DNA of 64,000 nucleotides from Escherichia coli 042 (GCF_000027125.1 NC_017626.1); one strand, 5' to 3'. Shown: positions 47,501 to 56,500, counted from the first letter of the stretch. Numbers are program-made.

Positions 47501-50500
47501 ATCATCACCATCATCACGATCACGAACATCATCAAGACCACGAACATCACCACGACCATGGACATCATCACCATCACGAACATGGCGAGTATCAGGATGC
47601 CCATGCACGAGCCCATGCCAATGACATTAAACGACGCTTTGATGGTAGAGAGGTCACCAACTGGCAAATTTTGTTATTTGGCTTAACCGGTGGCCTTATC
47701 CCCTGCCCGGCAGCAATTACCGTGCTATTGATATGCATTCAGTTGAAAGCCCTGACACTGGGCGCAACACTGGTCGTCAGTTTCAGCATTGGCCTGGCGT
47801 TTACGCTTGTCACCGTAGGCGTTGGCGCAGCAATCAGCGTTCAGCAGGTCGCAAAACGCTGGAGCGGATTTAACACTCTCGCTAAACGCGCCCCCTATTT
47901 TTCCAGTCTGTTGATTGGCTTAGTCGGTGTGTATATGGGCGTACATGGCTTCATGGGCATAATGTGATAACTCAATCCTTTAGGCTTGCATGTTATCTTC
48001 AGCCCAGGATGATTCTTAAATCAGCTATTTCCGCTGACTCTCTGCTCGCTAAGGATGCTTTTAGGGCATCCTTTCATTTACACTTTTTACGAAATCATGG
48101 GAGCACTAACAAAATATCGCTTGTCAGTTATATTGTATGGCAGGAAAGATATGCGACTGATATTACAGATCCCCAAAGTGGAGAGTTTATGACCATTAAA
48201 AATAAGATGTTACTGGGTGCGCTTTTGCTGGTTACCAGTGCCGCCTGGGCCGCACCAGCCACCGCGGGTTCGACCAATACCTCGGGAATTTCTAAGTATG
48301 AGTTAAGTAGTTTCATTGCTGACTTTAAGCATTTCAAACCAGGGGACACCGTACCAGAAATGTACCGTACCGATGAGTACAACATTAAGCAGTGGCAGTT
48401 GCGTAACCTGCCCGCGCCTGATGCCGGGACGCACTGGACCTATATGGGTGGCGCGTACGTGTTGATCAGCGACACCGACGGTAAAATCATTAAAGCCTAC
48501 GACGGTGAGATTTTTTATCATCGCTAAAAAAATCCCCCTCATCATGAGGGGGAAATGCAGACACCTTGTTATTTTTTATTATTAGCCACTTGCTCGTCTT
48601 GCTTGTTATTAGTCGTATTTCACGTTGATTAATGCGGTTGCCTCCAGTGCGCCAGATTTAACTTTGTTTGTATCGTAGACGTAGTAACTGGCTGTTATCG
48701 GAATTGAAACCGTTGTATCTGTAAGTTTTGACTTTGCCGCAATTTCTTTTAAATTTGTGTATCCTTTACTGCTGTTAGTGATATTTAAAAGTGTGACTGG
48801 CGAACCATTACTTTCAAGAATAAATCCTACGCCATTATCTTCCGCACCTTTCAGTATTGTGTTGCTGTTGGTTAACAAGTCAGAACTTGATAAATACACC
48901 TGCATTTTCCGTGATGTTTGATTTTGTTGACCTAATAAACTTTTACAACGCAGAATAATATCCCCTTGTTTACTATTTATTGTTGCTTTGTTACCTGTGG
49001 CTGGTAATTGTGAAACGGGAATGCTGTCTAAAGTAATTAATAAATCGTCCGGTTTGCAGGTTGTGGTTATCGGGTTGTATGACAATGTCAGATTAAAGGA
49101 ATAGACACCTGCATTTTGTGCCAATGCATTTCTGTAGTTATTTACACATGCATCCCATGACTTGCCACCTAATAAACACAGTAGAAATTGTACTGCGGCA
49201 CTCCCGCGTGTCGATGATGAAGCACTGGATAATGTCGCAACACCATTAATCATCACTGAACCGCCGCCCCCCGCAGAAACATTCACTTTTGCATTACTGG
49301 CCGCAGGTGTCACCGTAACTGAATAACCACTGGTGAAACTGGTCTGATTATTTGACAACGTGATGTTGTTTTTATTGGTCCATTCAAAATGTAAATTTAA
49401 TTTTATGGTATCGTTATAAAGTCCAACAATAATATCCGACGGGCTCATAGGGGTGATAGTATTTGTACTCACGCATGACGAATCATTAAAAGTATGCTCA
49501 TATGTCGCCATTTGTGTTTGACTAAGTGCAAAATCCCCCTGAACAACCAAGTTGTGCTGAACAGATAACTCACTATAACATGCCGCATAGCTCACAGGCA
49601 TAACCATCATCATTAATATAAATTGCATTATGCGAATTTCCATAGAACCACCTGACTATTACTGGCAAATATAATTTCTACTTTCATCAATCTCTTTACC
49701 GAAGGTGATTGTGCATGAAAGTCCTTGTTGCTTATCAATTGCTACATTAACCGATGGCGGAACTTCATTGGTGCGAATAAATAACTGGCTTCCCTGGCCG
49801 ACAACGCCAATATTATGACCATGGATATCATTGACTTCATAACCAAACGTTAATGGTTGCCCATCCGTTCTTAACGCTTTTATAAACCAGGGCTTGCGCT
49901 GATCGGTATCAAAATTAACCAGTACAACCGCGCCGCGATAAGGTGCGGCAATTTTCCGGTTACCGCGCAATTCTGCTTCGCTATCGCTTTGCGACACATC
50001 CAGCATCAGGTGATTTTCCCGATAAGGTGTCATTCCGTCGTATACCACCACTCCATTACGGTTTGTTGTGCGATATTTTTGCCCATTGACATAAGCATCT
50101 TTAATTCCTGGCGCATTCATCACTGCAAACGTTTCGGAAAGACGGTTCGCCAGATTAACGCCACCCGACCAGGCGACAATGCCCCCTGAAACACTGGCTC
50201 CAGCCTGTCGATAAGTACTCGACTGACTATAACTGCCATTCACCGTTGCCACCGGCGCGTTCCAGGTTAAATTCGCTCCAGCTGTTGTTTCATTTCCCTG
50301 ATGCTGATGACTCAGGTTGACCCCATAGTTAAATTGATCCCGGTTTCCAACGGTTCCCGATAATCCCGTATTATTTGAGGCAAAACCCTGATCATCAAAC
50401 GTCGTTGAGTTAGACATATATATTTGCCGACGAGGCGTCGTAACGTCATCACCCCAATCAAAGGGAATCGATATAAAAATATTAAAACGTTTCTCTTCAT

Positions 50501-53500: not shown

Positions 53501-56500
53501 TCTTGGAAACAAATTTCTCACATCAAAAAAGTTGCCGCAATGTAAACACATTGTTTTATTGATTTAAAACAAATTAACTATTGCAATATAAATACAACAA
53601 ATACTTAAGCATATTAAATATTTATCACATCTATTAATTAATGCAGATTTTTGTAAATGGTATTATTGATATCAATAAAAAAGCTGAAATCATTCACACG
53701 AATGATTTCAGCTTTCTAAATCCGATTAAAAAACCAGGGTGGCAAATTAATCGTAGCGATTTAACACGATTCGACGTTTGCTATCGCTACCTGCAACAAC
53801 CACTTCTGTCGTTACACCTTTGACTGGCGAAGAAACCTGATGACGGGTATCAACATCATACGTTAACTGACCACAATGCTGTTGAGGTTGACCATTAACC
53901 ATAGCCATACTGCATGTTGGGGGACTGATCCTGCCATTAATCGTTAATGTGGCAGTCTGTGAAGAGAACGCGGGAGAAGCCATTCCATAGGCAAGAAAAA
54001 TAATTCCTGACAGCCAGTACTTATTCATTGAACGTTATCCCTGTAGTAAAGGTTATGCCTGGATAGAATGAGTGCATAACAAACTATAGCTGTACATCCA
54101 CTACACAGCCACGAAGGATGATAATGAAGCATTGCCTGTACGATCAATCGACTTTATAGAGTTTCGGACGAAGGTCCGCAGAATATTCGCAGCATTAAAT
54201 AAGTGTTCATTAATGCGGCAAAAACAAATACACCGCATCAATGTAACATCTCTGCGGTGTATGAAAAGCAACCAAAAAGGTTAATACGCGTTAGACCGCG
54301 CGGAAGGAAATCTCGCCAGGAATGACTTCTCCCTGCCAATAAAGCTGGGCTGCAACGCGGTCAGCCAGCTGGCGGTAGATAGCGGTAAATTCGCTCTCCG
54401 GACGGCTGATAACCGTTGGCGTGCCTTTATCGAGATCTTCACGTAAGGAGATGTGTAACGGCATCTGCCCCAGCAACTGCGTGTGGTATTTCTCGGCCAG
54501 TTTCTCTGCACCACCGGTACCGAAAATCGGTTCATGGTGACCACAGTTACTGCAAATATGCACACTCATGTTCTCGACAATACCGAGCACCGGAACCTCG
54601 ACTTTCTCGAACATCACAATGCCTTTTTTCGCATCGATCAACGCAATGTCCTGCGGGGTGGTGACCACTACCGCGCCAGTTACTGGAATGTTTTGTGCCA
54701 GTGTCAATTGAATGTCACCGGTGCCTGGCGGCATATCAAGCACCAGATAGTCGAGATCCGGCCACAAGGTTTCCTGCAACATCTGCATTAACGCCTTGCT
54801 CGCCATCGGACCACGCCACACCATCGCATTGTCGTCAGTGACCAGATAACCAATTGAATTGGTTGCCAGTCCATGAGACATAATCGGTGCCATATGGGTA
54901 CCGTCCGGCGAAGTTGGACGCTGATTTTCTGCGCCCAGCATGGTGGGTATTGATGGGCCGTAGATATCGGCGTCCAGAATGCCGACTTTCGCCCCTTCCG
55001 CCGCCAGTGCCAGCGCCAGGTTTACCGCCGTGGAGGATTTACCCACGCCGCCTTTACCGGAGCTGACCGCAATGATGTTCTTCACGCCGTTAATTCCCGG
55101 CTGATTCTTCACGCGTTTTAAGGTGGCGATATTGTGCGACAGTTTCCAGTCGATAGCTTTCGCCCCGGTGATGCGCAGCAGTTCGGCGCTACATTGCTCT
55201 TTTAACTCTTCGAACGCGCTATGCCAGACGAATGGCATAACCAGTTCCACATGCAACGTGTCGTCCATCCAGGCGACATGGTGCAACGCTTTCAGCGTGG
55301 TGAGGTTATGCTTCAGGGTTGGGTGCTGAAAATTGGCCAGTGTCCCGGCGACCATTGCGCGCAAGGCTTCTGGTGATTTGGCCTGGGATTGTTCGTTCAT
55401 CCCGACTCCTTTTTTGTATAGATAAACCATCAGCTGATAGTTTACCTGAAGAATATAGAGAAGTACTTACTTAACATTTTCCCATTTGGTACTATCTAAC
55501 CCCTTTTCACTATTAAGAAGTAATGCCTACTATGACTCAAGTCGCGAAGAAAATTCTGGTGACGTGCGCACTGCCGTACGCTAACGGCTCAATCCACCTC
55601 GGCCATATGCTGGAGCACATCCAGGCTGATGTCTGGGTCCGTTACCAGCGAATGCGCGGCCACGAGGTCAACTTCATCTGCGCCGACGATGCCCACGGCA
55701 CACCGATCATGCTGAAAGCTCAGCAGCTTGGTATCACTCCGGAGCAGATGATTGGCGAAATGAGTCAGGAGCATCAGACTGATTTCGCAGGCTTTAACAT
55801 CAGCTACGACAACTATCACTCGACGCACAGCGAAGAGAACCGCCAGTTGTCAGAACTTATTTATTCTCGCCTGAAAGAGAACGGTTTTATTAAAAACCGC
55901 ACCATCTCTCAGCTTTACGATCCGGAAAAAGGCATGTTCCTGCCGGACCGTTTTGTAAAAGGCACCTGCCCGAAATGTAAATCCCCGGATCAATACGGCG
56001 ATAACTGCGAAGTCTGCGGCGCGACCTACAGCCCGACTGAACTGATCGAGCCGAAATCGGTGGTTTCTGGCGCTACGCCGGTAATGCGTGATTCCGAACA
56101 CTTCTTCTTTGATCTGCCCTCTTTCAGCGAAATGTTGCAGGCATGGACCCGCAGCGGTGCGTTGCAGGAGCAGGTGGCAAACAAAATGCAGGAGTGGTTT
56201 GAATCCGGCCTGCAACAGTGGGATATCTCCCGCGATGCGCCGTACTTCGGTTTTGAAATTCCGAACGCACCGGGCAAATATTTCTACGTCTGGCTGGACG
56301 CGCCGATTGGCTACATGGGTTCCTTCAAGAATCTGTGCGACAAACGCGGCGACACCACCAGCTTCGATGAATACTGGAAGAAAGATTCCACCGCCGAGCT
56401 GTACCACTTCATCGGTAAAGATATCGTTTACTTCCACAGCCTGTTCTGGCCTGCCATGCTGGAAGGCAGCAACTTCCGCAAGCCGACTAACCTGTTTGTT

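What the first reader, a model, noticed from the sequence alone, without database searches (positions are those of the whole stretch)
48609..54028. yehABCD(E) chaperone-usher fimbrial operon in AT-rich DNA with long AT-rich promoter region
The operon has noticeably AT-rich codon usage relative to flanking metG/rcnA and a ~290-bp extremely AT-rich upstream region (53453-53746). This is typical of horizontally acquired, H-NS-silenced cryptic fimbriae, and the adhesin-like YehA is Thr/Ser/Asn-rich and likely variable.
Basis: partly seen in the sequence, partly recalled or inferred. Interest (0 to 1): 0.25.

Follow-up and report, generated by a model that had tools for sequence, protein, structure and literature searches.

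The report
Ancient AT-rich Yeh pilus locus
This is the already well-described Yeh adhesive-pilus gene cluster of E. coli: an old, AT-rich, normally silenced core locus whose sticky tip protein exists in two very different versions, so the finding is real but ordinary.

Summary
Window 48609-54028 (minus strand) carries intact yehA (tip adhesin), yehB (usher), yehC (chaperone), yehD (major pilin) and yehE (DUF2574). At GC 0.419 it is the lowest-GC 5.4 kb of the 64-kb window, and the 294-bp yehD-yehE spacer (GC 0.255) is its most AT-rich stretch.

- The locus is not a recent import. It is in 5423 of 5426 complete E. coli genomes, and it sits between apbC and rcnB, equally AT-rich, in Salmonella (stc) and Citrobacter.
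- The AT-rich stretch is not upstream of the whole cluster. It holds a covariation-supported terminator for yehE, a variable spacer, and a 128-nt block conserved across genera that fits an extended -10 promoter for yehDCBA. yehE is therefore probably its own transcription unit.
- YehA is variable, but as two allele classes at one locus (receptor-binding domains about 22% identical).

H-NS silencing, the "promoter island", the pectin-binding adhesin structure (PDB 9N4G) and the Yeh/Yhl split are all published, so this is already known and of low interest. Small additions: Yeh and Yhl adhesins look mutually exclusive, and YehE has a pilin-like N-terminus.

The parts
48533..48553 (.). GC-rich hairpin with T-runs on both sides, between the convergent yehA and rcnB: a shared (bidirectional) intrinsic terminator
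   Evidence: Terminator scan; fold -16.9 kcal/mol, z -2.3
48609..49643 (-). yehA: two-domain tip adhesin, called YehD in the UTI89 nomenclature. Signal peptide residues 1-20, receptor-binding domain 21-193, pilin domain about 194-344
   Evidence: Pfam Fimbrial on residues 184-344. 98.3% amino-acid identity to K-12 YehA. 31% Ser+Thr+Asn
49065..49583 (-). Part of yehA encoding the receptor-binding domain (residues 21-193). It is the pectin-binding, alpha-helical-flap domain solved as PDB 9N4G
   Evidence: phmmer against PDB: 9n4g_A, E 1.9e-107, 170/173 identical; differences are S41T, T51N and N169S in precursor numbering. Function taken from PMC12778044
49659..52139 (-). yehB: outer-membrane usher (826 aa)
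   Evidence: Pfam Usher E 1.5e-195, plus PapC_N and PapC_C; dN/dS 0.05-0.11
52155..52829 (-). yehC: PapD-like periplasmic chaperone (224 aa)
   Evidence: Pfam PapD_N E 1.3e-40 and PapD_C E 1e-8
52852..52873 (-). GC-rich hairpin followed by TTTTAA, just after the major-pilin gene. Probably an intra-operon attenuator or mRNA-stabilising stem that raises YehD output relative to the chaperone, usher and adhesin
   Evidence: Terminator scan; fold -15.7 kcal/mol, z -3.0. Stem kept by compensatory changes in E. albertii, E. whittamii and a cryptic clade; a different GC hairpin sits at the same place in Salmonella and Citrobacter
52910..53452 (-). yehD: major pilin (180 aa)
   Evidence: Pfam Fimbrial E 3.1e-7; 99.4% amino-acid identity to K-12, 34% to the Salmonella and Citrobacter orthologues
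53478..53605 (-). Conserved non-coding block upstream of yehD: the probable regulatory core of the operon
   Evidence: Identity to the window: 93% O157, 86% E. albertii, 76% Salmonella, 70% Citrobacter, versus 47-60% in the adjacent spacer and synonymous-site difference 0.45-0.6 in the neighbouring genes. The core motifs are also kept upstream of a Yeh-like operon at a different chromosomal locus
53512..53540 (-). Candidate sigma-70 extended -10 promoter PyehD. -35 TTGCGG at 53540-53535, 17-nt spacer, TG at 53520-53519, -10 GAAATT at 53517-53512. Predicted start near 53505, giving a 5' UTR of about 52 nt with one GGA at the Shine-Dalgarno (53464-53458)
   Evidence: Inference. Apart from T6 of the -10 (conserved in at least 70% of the sequences), the key promoter positions (TTG of -35, TG, A2 of -10) are invariant across seven lineages of Enterobacteriaceae. 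No transcription start-site data were available. The generic promoter scan did not report it, because its -35 matches only 3 of 6
53606..53675 (-). Fast-evolving, very AT-rich spacer. With the conserved block it forms the published 'promoter island' and H-NS-bound region
   Evidence: 47-60% identity between allele classes and genera. A promoter-like site at 53675-53647 is not conserved. Promoter island and H-NS binding from PMC3661553, Table 1
53678..53717 (-). Intrinsic terminator of yehE: 16-18 bp stem, GUGU loop, U-run
   Evidence: Fold -25.4 kcal/mol, z -6.1, 0/200 shuffles fold as well. Covariation: 6 of 16 pairs have changes on both sides, 96.4% of cells paired, 0/500 shuffles reach this, and shifted registers pair at only 28-53%
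53747..54028 (-). yehE: small secreted DUF2574 protein (93 aa; signal peptide about residues 1-22). Its N-terminus is homologous to the major pilin N-terminus and its C-terminus is invariant (RxIVLNRYD)
   Evidence: Pfam DUF2574 E 1.4e-51. hhalign against the YehD family: probability 95.7%, E 9.8e-9, over residues 1-42. dN/dS 0.13-0.44. Only 32 cluster representatives among 1.8 billion proteins
54029..54290 (-). apbC-yehE spacer: apbC terminator hairpin (54228-54262) followed by a probable yehE promoter region (promoter-like site 54147-54118)
   Evidence: Fold -21.1 kcal/mol, z -3.8; promoter scan 9/12; GC 0.405

Best explanation
The region is the core-genome Yeh (gamma4-clade) chaperone-usher pilus locus of E. 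coli, intact in this strain.

How it is built and used:
- YehD subunits are folded by the periplasmic chaperone YehC and polymerised through the usher YehB. The fibre is tipped by the two-domain adhesin YehA, whose N-terminal domain is the pectin-binding, alpha-helical-flap domain solved as PDB 9N4G.
- Transcription of yehDCBA most likely starts at an extended -10 sigma-70 promoter inside a 128-nt block conserved across genera, about 50-90 bp upstream of yehD.
- That promoter lies in very AT-rich DNA. In K-12 this DNA is coated by H-NS and kept silent under laboratory conditions, and can be counter-silenced (SlyA over-production). In EHEC, CsrA acts on the yehD leader.
- A hairpin after yehD probably skews output toward the major pilin.
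- yehE, just upstream, is a separate monocistronic unit with its own terminator. It encodes a small secreted protein derived from a pilin N-terminus that travels with Yeh-type operons.

The low GC content is an ancient, maintained property of the locus, shared with Salmonella stc and the Citrobacter orthologue. It is not a sign of recent transfer.

Basis of each step:
- Shown here: gene content, composition, synteny, terminator covariation, block conservation, allele structure.
- Taken from the literature: H-NS, SlyA and CsrA control, pectin binding, pilus formation.
- Inferred: the exact promoter, the attenuator role of the yehD hairpin, any role for YehE.
For: - Gene identities.
- Adhesin receptor-binding domain 170/173 identical to 9N4G.
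- Composition.
- Core status: 5423/5426 genomes.
- Synteny, and equal AT-richness, in other Escherichia species, Citrobacter and Salmonella. Wurpel 2013 (PMC3559732) states the same.
- Purifying selection on all five genes.
- yehE terminator.
- Hairpin after yehD.
- Conserved block and promoter-position invariants, also at a second locus.
- DUF2574 next to Yeh-type operons in 5 of 6 lineages examined, once in divergent orientation.
- Literature: H-NS regulon and SlyA (PMC5797941); promoter island with H-NS (PMC3661553); static EPOD (bioRxiv 10.1101/2024.06.20.599902); single yehD-to-yehA transcript and CsrA binding in EHEC (PMC11287998); pectin binding and gut colonisation (PMC12778044).
Against: - No transcription start-site, ChIP or expression data exist for this strain. 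H-NS binding is extrapolated from K-12, whose spacer is 91.5% identical.
- The proposed -35 matches only TTG, and the generic scan did not call this promoter.
- One preprint refers to a 'yehEDCBA operon', so read-through of the yehE terminator cannot be excluded.
- In O157-type alleles the hairpin after yehD lacks a T-run, so it may act as a stabiliser rather than a terminator.
- The YehE-pilin homology covers only 42 residues, half of them signal peptide. Both structure predictions failed.
Confidence: 0.85

Rival explanations
1. One reading: a relatively recent horizontally acquired fimbrial island that has not yet drifted to the host base composition and is therefore silenced by H-NS as foreign DNA.
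For: Low GC and GC3 relative to flanks. Composition-based predictors (IslandViewer, GIST, Nakamura, Lawrence-Ochman) flagged yeh as foreign, as tabulated in PMC3661553 and PMC5797941. The whole yehE-yehA haplotype of O157:H7 is as diverged from this window as E. albertii is (dS 0.7-1.2, versus 0.06-0.10 in the flanks), which shows that allele-level exchange or very old polymorphism does occur here.
Against: Present in 5423/5426 complete genomes at a single site. Identical synteny in E. albertii, E. whittamii, cryptic clades, Citrobacter and Salmonella. The orthologous Salmonella and Citrobacter genes are equally AT-poor relative to their flanks, so the composition has persisted since before these genera split. 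No integrase, tRNA or direct-repeat boundary was seen in the ORF list or in the annotation of five matching E. coli records.
Confidence: 0.07
2. yehE-yehD-yehC-yehB-yehA is one operon, driven from upstream of yehE. The AT-rich 294 bp would then be an internal spacer (for example a processing or attenuation site), not the operon promoter.
For: All five genes are co-oriented and always adjacent in Escherichia, Salmonella and Citrobacter. A preprint labels the unit yehEDCBA (10.1101/2024.06.20.599902). A promoter-like site lies upstream of yehE.
Against: A -25 kcal/mol hairpin with a U-run directly follows yehE and is maintained by compensatory changes across three genera. The conserved block with promoter-like invariants lies downstream of that hairpin. 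In one lineage DUF2574 is divergent from the Yeh-like operon, yet the block stays with the pilin gene. Published work names the unit yehDCBA and treats yehD as its first gene (PMC5797941, PMC11287998).
Confidence: 0.1
3. The cluster is a decaying, functionless relic ('cryptic' in the sense of dead), and its AT-richness reflects relaxed selection.
For: It is not expressed in K-12 under laboratory conditions (Korea 2010, as cited in PMC3559732 and PMC5797941). IS1 or IS3 insertions in or near yehA occur in several genomes.
Against: All five ORFs are intact here. dN/dS is 0.02-0.14 for yehB, yehC and yehD and 0.08-0.34 for yehA. Published work reports functional pili when expressed, a gut-colonisation phenotype, native expression in EHEC, and a folded adhesin that binds pectin (PMC12778044, PMC11287998).
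Confidence: 0.03

Closest known systems
Yeh pilus of E. coli K-12 / UTI89 (yehDCBA in K-12 names; yehABCD in UTI89 names, where the adhesin is 'YehD')
   Same: Same locus, gene order and gene lengths. 97.2% nucleotide identity to K-12 over the locus, and YehA 98.3% amino-acid identity. The receptor-binding domain is 170/173 identical to the crystallised UTI89 domain 9N4G.
   Different: Allelic differences only. The yehBCDE part is closer to another lineage (98.8-100% to strain NDM_11.16372) than to K-12 (96-97.6%), so this strain's haplotype is a mosaic. There are three receptor-binding-domain substitutions. One, N169 (mature residue 149), sits next to Y150 of the flap pocket described in PMC12778044.
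Yhl ('Yeh-like') pilus, locus 9 of E. coli O157:H7 (Z3276-Z3279; adhesin domain PDB 8V9V)
   Same: Same chromosomal slot between rcnB and apbC, same five-gene layout, same conserved yehD upstream block and yehE terminator. Per PMC12778044 the adhesin fold is the same.
   Different: The whole haplotype is diverged: amino-acid identity YehE 70%, YehD 86%, YehC 88%, YehB 93%, YehA 36%, with the receptor-binding domain about 22%. The paper reports a different ligand. The window carries the Yeh type, not the Yhl type.
Salmonella enterica Stc fimbriae (stcABCD plus the upstream yehE homologue)
   Same: Orthologous locus: metG-apbC-DUF2574-pilin-chaperone-usher-adhesin-rcnB. It is equally AT-rich (genes 0.40-0.46, spacer 0.28, flanks 0.55-0.62). 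The adhesin is of the Yeh type (about 50% identity over its full length). The terminator hairpin and promoter block are conserved.
   Different: Major pilin only 34% identical. A different hairpin sequence follows the pilin gene.
Type 1 (fim) and P (pap) pili, the paradigm chaperone-usher systems
   Same: Chaperone, usher, major pilin and two-domain tip adhesin; a stem-loop after the major subunit gene; H-NS-repressed AT-rich regulatory DNA.
   Different: Minimal four-gene operon with no adaptor or terminator subunits and no linked regulator genes. No fimS-type invertible element or recombinase, and no GATC pair for a Pap-type Dam/Lrp switch in the yehD upstream region. It has a DUF2574 partner gene, which fim and pap do not have.

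Membership tests
Classical chaperone-usher pilus operon | PapD-like periplasmic chaperone with both domains | tested here: met
   YehC: PF00345 E 1.3e-40 and PF02753 E 1e-8
Classical chaperone-usher pilus operon | Outer-membrane usher with N-terminal, pore and C-terminal domains | tested here: met
   YehB: PF13954 E 3.9e-34, PF00577 E 1.5e-195, PF13953 E 9.2e-9
Classical chaperone-usher pilus operon | At least one pilin subunit with the Fimbrial domain and a signal peptide | tested here: met
   YehD: PF00419 E 3.1e-7. YehA residues 184-344: PF00419 E 1.2e-23
Gamma4 clade (Nuccio-Baumler usher phylogeny) | Usher groups with gamma4 ushers in a phylogeny | not tested
   Taken from PMC11287998 and PMC12778044. 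Here only 97-99% identity of YehB to K-12, NU14 and NDM_11 YehB, and 93% to the O157 usher, was shown
Yeh-type (as opposed to Yhl-type) adhesin | Receptor-binding domain homologous to 9N4G rather than 8V9V | tested here: met
   170/173 identical to 9n4g_A, and 8v9v is not hit by the single sequence. Receptor-binding-domain identity is 98% to K-12 and 22% to O157
Yeh-type adhesin | Binds pectin through the flap-covered pocket | not testable with these tools
   Biochemistry reported for the UTI89 protein (PMC12778044). The window protein differs at three positions, one adjacent to Y150
H-NS-silenced (xenogeneic-type) locus | AT content clearly above the genome or flank level | tested here: met
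   GC 0.419 versus 0.506; spacer 0.255
H-NS-silenced (xenogeneic-type) locus | H-NS occupancy, and derepression in hns mutants | not testable with these tools
   Reported for K-12 (PMC5797941 Table 2; PMC3661553 Table 1; Korea 2010 as cited there). A count of matches to the 10-bp H-NS nucleation motif (up to 2 mismatches) was uninformative: 2.1 per kb versus 1.45 per kb
Recently horizontally acquired genomic island | Patchy distribution within the species; absent from the orthologous site in related genera | tested here: not met
   5423/5426 E. coli genomes. Same site in E. albertii, E. whittamii, cryptic clades, Citrobacter, Salmonella and two further lineages
Recently horizontally acquired genomic island | Mobility hallmarks at the borders (integrase, tRNA, direct repeats) | tested here: not met
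   Flanks are rcnB and apbC, each with a terminator. No integrase or transposase appears in the ORF list of the window or in the annotation of matching records, apart from secondary IS insertions in some strains
Single yehEDCBA operon | No terminator between yehE and yehD | tested here: not met
   Hairpin plus U-run at 53678-53717, z -6.1. 6/16 pairs are compensatory across 12 sequences from three genera. Actual read-through was not measured
Phase-variable fimbrial switch (fimS inversion or pap Dam/Lrp) | Invertible element with a recombinase, or paired GATC sites in the regulatory region | tested here: not met
   No recombinase gene in the locus. Only chance-level AT-rich inverted repeats. 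No GATC in 53453-53746
Pilin superfamily (for YehE / DUF2574) | Detectable homology to a pilin over the Ig-like fold, including the acceptor groove | tested here: inconclusive
   Homology only over residues 1-42 to the YehD family (hhalign 95.7%). No Pfam Fimbrial hit in 15 members even at E up to 10. Nothing against YehA. AF2 models had pLDDT 46 and 48. The C-terminal penultimate Tyr and the Gly at -14 resemble the subunit motif (own knowledge of Pap/Fim subunits), which is a lead only

The most novel reading that the evidence does not exclude
YehE (DUF2574) is not a bystander. It would be a pilin-derived mini-subunit that has kept a donor-strand-like N-terminus (TATLTINGRISPPTC) and a chaperone-recognition-like C-terminus (RxIVLNRYD) but lost most of the Ig fold. 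Under separate transcriptional control, it would modulate Yeh/Stc pilus assembly, for example by capping or terminating the fibre or by titrating the chaperone YehC. This would explain why the otherwise 'minimal' four-gene operon lacks a terminator subunit, and why DUF2574 has stayed next to Yeh-type operons across several enterobacterial genera, even when inverted at another locus.
Probability: 0.2. Interest if true: 0.5.

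Novelty: already known. Interest (0 to 1): 0.15.

Why it matters
The finding as stated adds nothing new. The Yeh operon, its cryptic and H-NS-silenced state, its core and ancestral status, the 'promoter island' in the yehD-yehE spacer, and the structure and ligand of the adhesin are all published.

Three points have some value for annotation and teaching:
1. Low GC with H-NS silencing here marks an ancient core locus. Its composition has been kept in Escherichia, Salmonella and Citrobacter. This is a caution against reading AT-richness as recent transfer.
2. The AT-rich spacer resolves into a terminator, a fast-evolving stretch and a deeply conserved promoter block. That gives a concrete target for start-site mapping and regulator hunting.
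3. In 5,426 complete genomes the Yeh and Yhl adhesins behave as alternative alleles of one locus, and each has its closest relative in a different genus. This bears on how their prevalence and 'co-occurrence' are counted.

Tried and rejected
- Rfam scan of 46000-56000 at E up to 1 found only the thiM TPP riboswitch and a sub-threshold Hrs1 match on the rcnB/yehA terminator. There is no known RNA family in the yeh spacers.
- Conserved RNA structure in the yehD leader: RNAalifold gave -2.3 kcal/mol and no compensatory pair. The block is therefore read as DNA-level regulation.
- Leader peptide in the block: the 21-codon ORF starting at ATGTGTTTACAT in this strain loses its frame in most other alleles (AATATG variants), by inspection of the alignment. 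Rejected.
- Phase-variation devices: only AT-rich chance inverted repeats, no GATC, no recombinase.
- H-NS nucleation-motif counting was uninformative.
- The generic promoter scan found fewer sites than in shuffled sequence (13 versus 16.8), and its only hit in the spacer is not conserved.
- AlphaFold2 of YehE alone (pLDDT 46) and of a YehC-(G4S)6-YehE fusion with an 11-row paired alignment (pLDDT 48, with even the chaperone N-domain poorly modelled). Both are unusable, so no fold search was run.
- hhalign of the YehE family against the YehA family: no match. Pfam at E up to 10 on 15 DUF2574 members: no Fimbrial hit. PDB sequence search with the YehE profile: noise only.
The narrower one returned only 7 loci and no Salmonella. 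The Salmonella locus was obtained through the adhesin protein instead.
- Korea et al. 2010 is not in the held library, so it is cited only second-hand.
- A literature search on 'yehE' by word start was swamped by unrelated words. The whole-word search found a single paper naming both yehE and yehD.

Full report
**1. What is at the coordinates**

On the minus strand the window carries five intact genes:
- yehA, 48609-49643, 344 aa
- yehB, 49659-52139, 826 aa from the ATG
- yehC, 52155-52829, 224 aa
- yehD, 52910-53452, 180 aa
- yehE, 53747-54028, 93 aa

They lie between rcnB (plus strand, ending at 48527) and apbC/mrp (54291-55400, minus strand), with metG beyond. Pfam confirms usher, PapD-like chaperone, Fimbrial domains in YehD and in the C-terminal half of YehA, and DUF2574 for YehE. 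Megablast against 5,426 complete E. coli genomes finds the locus in 5,423 of them, annotated yehA-yehE. Identity to K-12 is 97.2% and the best hit is 99.2%.

**2. The composition claim holds**

- GC of 48609-54028 is 0.419. All 5.4-kb windows of the 64-kb sequence average 0.506 (sd 0.033), and their minimum falls on this locus.
- GC3 is 0.35-0.45 in the yeh genes, against 0.49-0.63 in thiD, thiM, rcnA, apbC and metG.
- The yehD-yehE spacer, 53453-53746, has GC 0.255 and is the most AT-rich 294 bp of the window.
- YehA is 31% Ser+Thr+Asn, twice the level of the flanking housekeeping proteins.

**3. The locus is not a recent import**

The order metG-apbC-yehE-yehD-yehC-yehB-yehA-rcnB is kept in E. 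albertii, E. whittamii, two cryptic Escherichia clades and a Citrobacter genome. It is also kept in Salmonella, where the genes are stcABCD preceded by a DUF2574 gene, and in two more distant lineages. Wurpel et al. 2013 (PMC3559732) already classed Yeh as "core-associated" and ancestral to Escherichia and Salmonella.

The Salmonella and Citrobacter orthologues are just as AT-rich relative to their flanks: genes 0.40-0.46, spacer 0.28-0.32, flanks 0.55-0.62. The composition is therefore an old, maintained trait. All five genes are under purifying selection. dN/dS is 0.02-0.14 for yehB, yehC and yehD, 0.08-0.34 for yehA and 0.13-0.44 for yehE. Synteny contradicts it for the locus as a whole.

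**4. Anatomy of the "long AT-rich promoter region"**

The region lies between yehE and yehD and has three parts.

(a) Right after the yehE stop is a 16-18-bp hairpin with a U-run, at 53678-53717. It folds at -25.4 kcal/mol (z -6.1). Across 12 sequences from three genera, 6 of 16 pairs carry compensatory changes and 96% of cells pair. No shuffle out of 500 reaches this, and shifted registers pair at only 28-53%. This is an intrinsic terminator, so yehE is most likely monocistronic.

(b) 53606-53675 is very AT-rich and evolves fast, with 47-60% identity between allele classes and genera.

(c) 53478-53605 is strikingly conserved. Identity to the window is 93% for O157:H7, 86% for E. albertii, 76% for Salmonella and 70% for Citrobacter. 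The neighbouring coding DNA is only 75-80% identical between the window and O157, with synonymous-site differences of 0.45-0.6.

The same core motifs (TTATATTGCA, TTTAAATCAAnAAAACA, TTTACATTGCGG) precede the pilin gene of a Yeh-like operon that sits at a different chromosomal locus.

The invariant positions fit an extended -10 sigma-70 promoter. The -35 is TTGCGG at 53540-53535, followed by a 17-nt spacer, TG at 53520-53519 and a -10 GAAATT at 53517-53512. The A/T-rich conserved stretch upstream sits where an UP element or an activator site would be. This promoter assignment is an inference, because no start-site data were available.

RNAalifold gives no support for a conserved leader structure. 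No conserved small ORF exists, and Rfam finds nothing.

In K-12 this spacer is one of 78 published "promoter islands", bound by H-NS in two ChIP datasets (PMC3661553). yehDCBA is listed in the H-NS regulon and rises 3.6-fold on SlyA over-production (PMC5797941). The locus lies in a static silenced protein-occupancy domain (bioRxiv 10.1101/2024.06.20.599902). In EHEC the operon is one yehD-to-yehA transcript, and CsrA binds the leader at the GGA of the Shine-Dalgarno (PMC11287998). That GGA is present here at 53464-53458.

**5. Other transcript features**

- A GC-rich hairpin (52852-52873) followed by TTTTAA sits between yehD and yehC. Its stem is kept by compensatory changes in other Escherichia species. 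Salmonella and Citrobacter have a different GC hairpin at the same place. It probably acts as an attenuator or stabiliser that favours the major subunit.
- A hairpin at 48533-48553 serves the convergent yehA and rcnB.
- apbC has its own terminator at 54228-54262.
- No invertible element, recombinase or GATC pair was found.

**6. The adhesin**

YehA residues 21-193 are 170/173 identical to PDB 9N4G. This is the receptor-binding domain that Tamadonfar et al. 2026 (PMC12778044) call YehD in UTI89 nomenclature. It is a beta jelly-roll with an alpha-helical flap that binds pectin and contributes to gut colonisation. One of the three substitutions here, N169 (mature residue 149), is adjacent to the pocket residue Y150.

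**7. "Likely variable" is true, but as a dimorphism**

Identity of this window to O157:H7:

| Gene | Amino-acid identity |
|---|---|
| YehA | 36% |
| YehE | 70% |
| YehD | 86% |
| YehC | 88% |
| YehB | 93% |
| ApbC | 100% |
| RcnB | 99% |

- dS in yehB to yehE is 0.7-1.2, which equals the divergence from E. albertii. dS in the flanks is 0.06-0.10.
- The O157 type is the published "Yhl" pilus.
- K-12-type yehA covers at least 80% of the query in 4,605 genomes, and the Yhl type in 650.
- A query made of the two receptor-binding-domain coding halves joined end to end hit 5,306 genomes at 5,317 places. At most 11 genomes could therefore hold both. In complete genomes the two types behave as alternative alleles of one locus. 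This does not fit the statement in PMC12778044 that about half of phylogroup E strains carry both. The two genes share about 90% identity in their last 85 nt and about 53% amino-acid identity in the pilin domain, which could inflate co-detection. I did not test their method.
- Mosaics exist. Strain NDM_11.16372 has window-type yehBCDE (98.8-100%) with a Yhl-type adhesin.
- The Yeh-type domain is 51% identical to Salmonella StcD, and the Yhl-type domain is 54% identical to the Citrobacter adhesin. Between the two types identity is only 20-26%. The split is therefore older than the genera, or alleles have moved between genera.
- Within the K-12 type the protein is conserved: 96.8-98.3% amino-acid identity to K-12 and NU14, and 88% to E. 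albertii.

**8. YehE**

DUF2574 is a tiny family, with 32 cluster representatives among 1.8 billion proteins. I found no functional study of it. All members have:
- a signal peptide;
- a motif DTATLTINGxVxxPTC, which is homologous to the major pilin N-terminus (hhalign 95.7%, E 9.8e-9, residues 1-42);
- a second Cys;
- GVTTE;
- an invariant C-terminus RxIVLNRYD.

From my own knowledge of Pap and Fim subunits, the penultimate Tyr and the Gly at -14 resemble the chaperone-recognition motif of pilus subunits. That is a lead, not a test.

In 5 of 6 lineages examined the gene lies next to the pilin gene of a Yeh-type operon. In one of these it is divergently oriented at another locus. In the sixth lineage it is an orphan.

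Structure prediction of YehE alone, and of YehE fused to YehC, failed (pLDDT 46 and 48). No similarity beyond the N-terminus was detectable. A role in pilus assembly is therefore only a hypothesis.

**9. Verdict**

It is wrong on recent horizontal origin, and imprecise on where the promoter region sits and whether yehE belongs to the operon. Nearly everything is already published, so novelty is "already known" and interest is low. The modest new points are the three-part anatomy of the spacer with its deeply conserved promoter block, the covariation-supported yehE terminator, the one-locus allelic nature and cross-genus affinities of the Yeh and Yhl adhesins, and the pilin-derived N-terminus of YehE.

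Noticed in passing
window 48609-49643; compare L003:3210-4244 and L004:3208-4242: The Yeh-type and Yhl-type adhesin genes appear mutually exclusive in 5,426 complete genomes: a joined query of the two receptor-binding-domain halves hit 5,306 genomes at 5,317 places. This conflicts with the published statement that about half of phylogroup E strains carry both. The shared 3' 85 nt and the similar pilin domain may explain the discrepancy.
   Followed up: partly
L004 (strain NDM_11.16372) 3208-8622, versus window 48609-54028: Mosaic haplotype: yehBCDE is 98.8-100% identical to the window, but yehA is of the Yhl type. Apparent breakpoints lie near the yehB/yehA junction and about 85 nt before the yehA stop. 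The window itself is a mosaic relative to K-12: yehA 98.9% but yehC 96.0%.
   Followed up: partly
L002:3208-5019 (strain 51489); also hits H8, H15, H25, H35: IS1 or IS3 insertions interrupt yehA or lie within the locus in several otherwise near-identical genomes, which suggests recurrent inactivation of the adhesin gene.
   Followed up: no
L020:1660-7273 (GCA_032071645.1): A Yeh-like four-gene operon (YehD 60%, YehC 68%, YehB 73% identity) sits at a different chromosomal locus. It is not AT-poor (GC 0.516). Its DUF2574 gene is divergently oriented, yet the conserved upstream motifs are retained. The organism was not identified.
   Followed up: partly
L017:7001-7276 (GCA_014103785.1, 6.2-Mb genome): An orphan DUF2574 gene with no Yeh-type genes within 7 kb. 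About 5.8 kb upstream of it has no called genes in the index.
   Followed up: no
window 47122-47967 (rcnA): RcnA is 281 aa here versus 274 aa in K-12 and 283 aa in O157:H7, with only 92-96% nucleotide identity. This probably reflects length variation in its His-rich loop. The mechanical ORF for rcnB (GTG start, 187 aa) is longer than the annotated 112-aa protein.
   Followed up: no
window 46541-46637 (minus strand): TPP riboswitch upstream of thiM (Rfam RF00059, 71.8 bits, E 5.6e-13), as annotated in K-12.
   Followed up: yes
window 13250-14000 and 30000-30800: Two other low-GC patches (GC down to 0.30 and 0.32 in 294-bp windows). By mapping to K-12 they fall near the yegJ/yegI spacer and the yegR/ogrK region. 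At the latter the window has about 316 bp where K-12 has about 776 bp, including the P2-remnant ogrK.
   Followed up: no
window 32716-32718 and 38534-38655: Relative to K-12 the window lacks the IS3 insertion in gatR and the IS1 between fbaB and gatY, so gatR is probably intact here.
   Followed up: no
window 55523-57565 (metG): The longest ORF for metG begins [12 protein letters not shown] (680 aa), three codons upstream of the usual 677-aa start. This is probably only an artefact of mechanical ORF calling.
   Followed up: no
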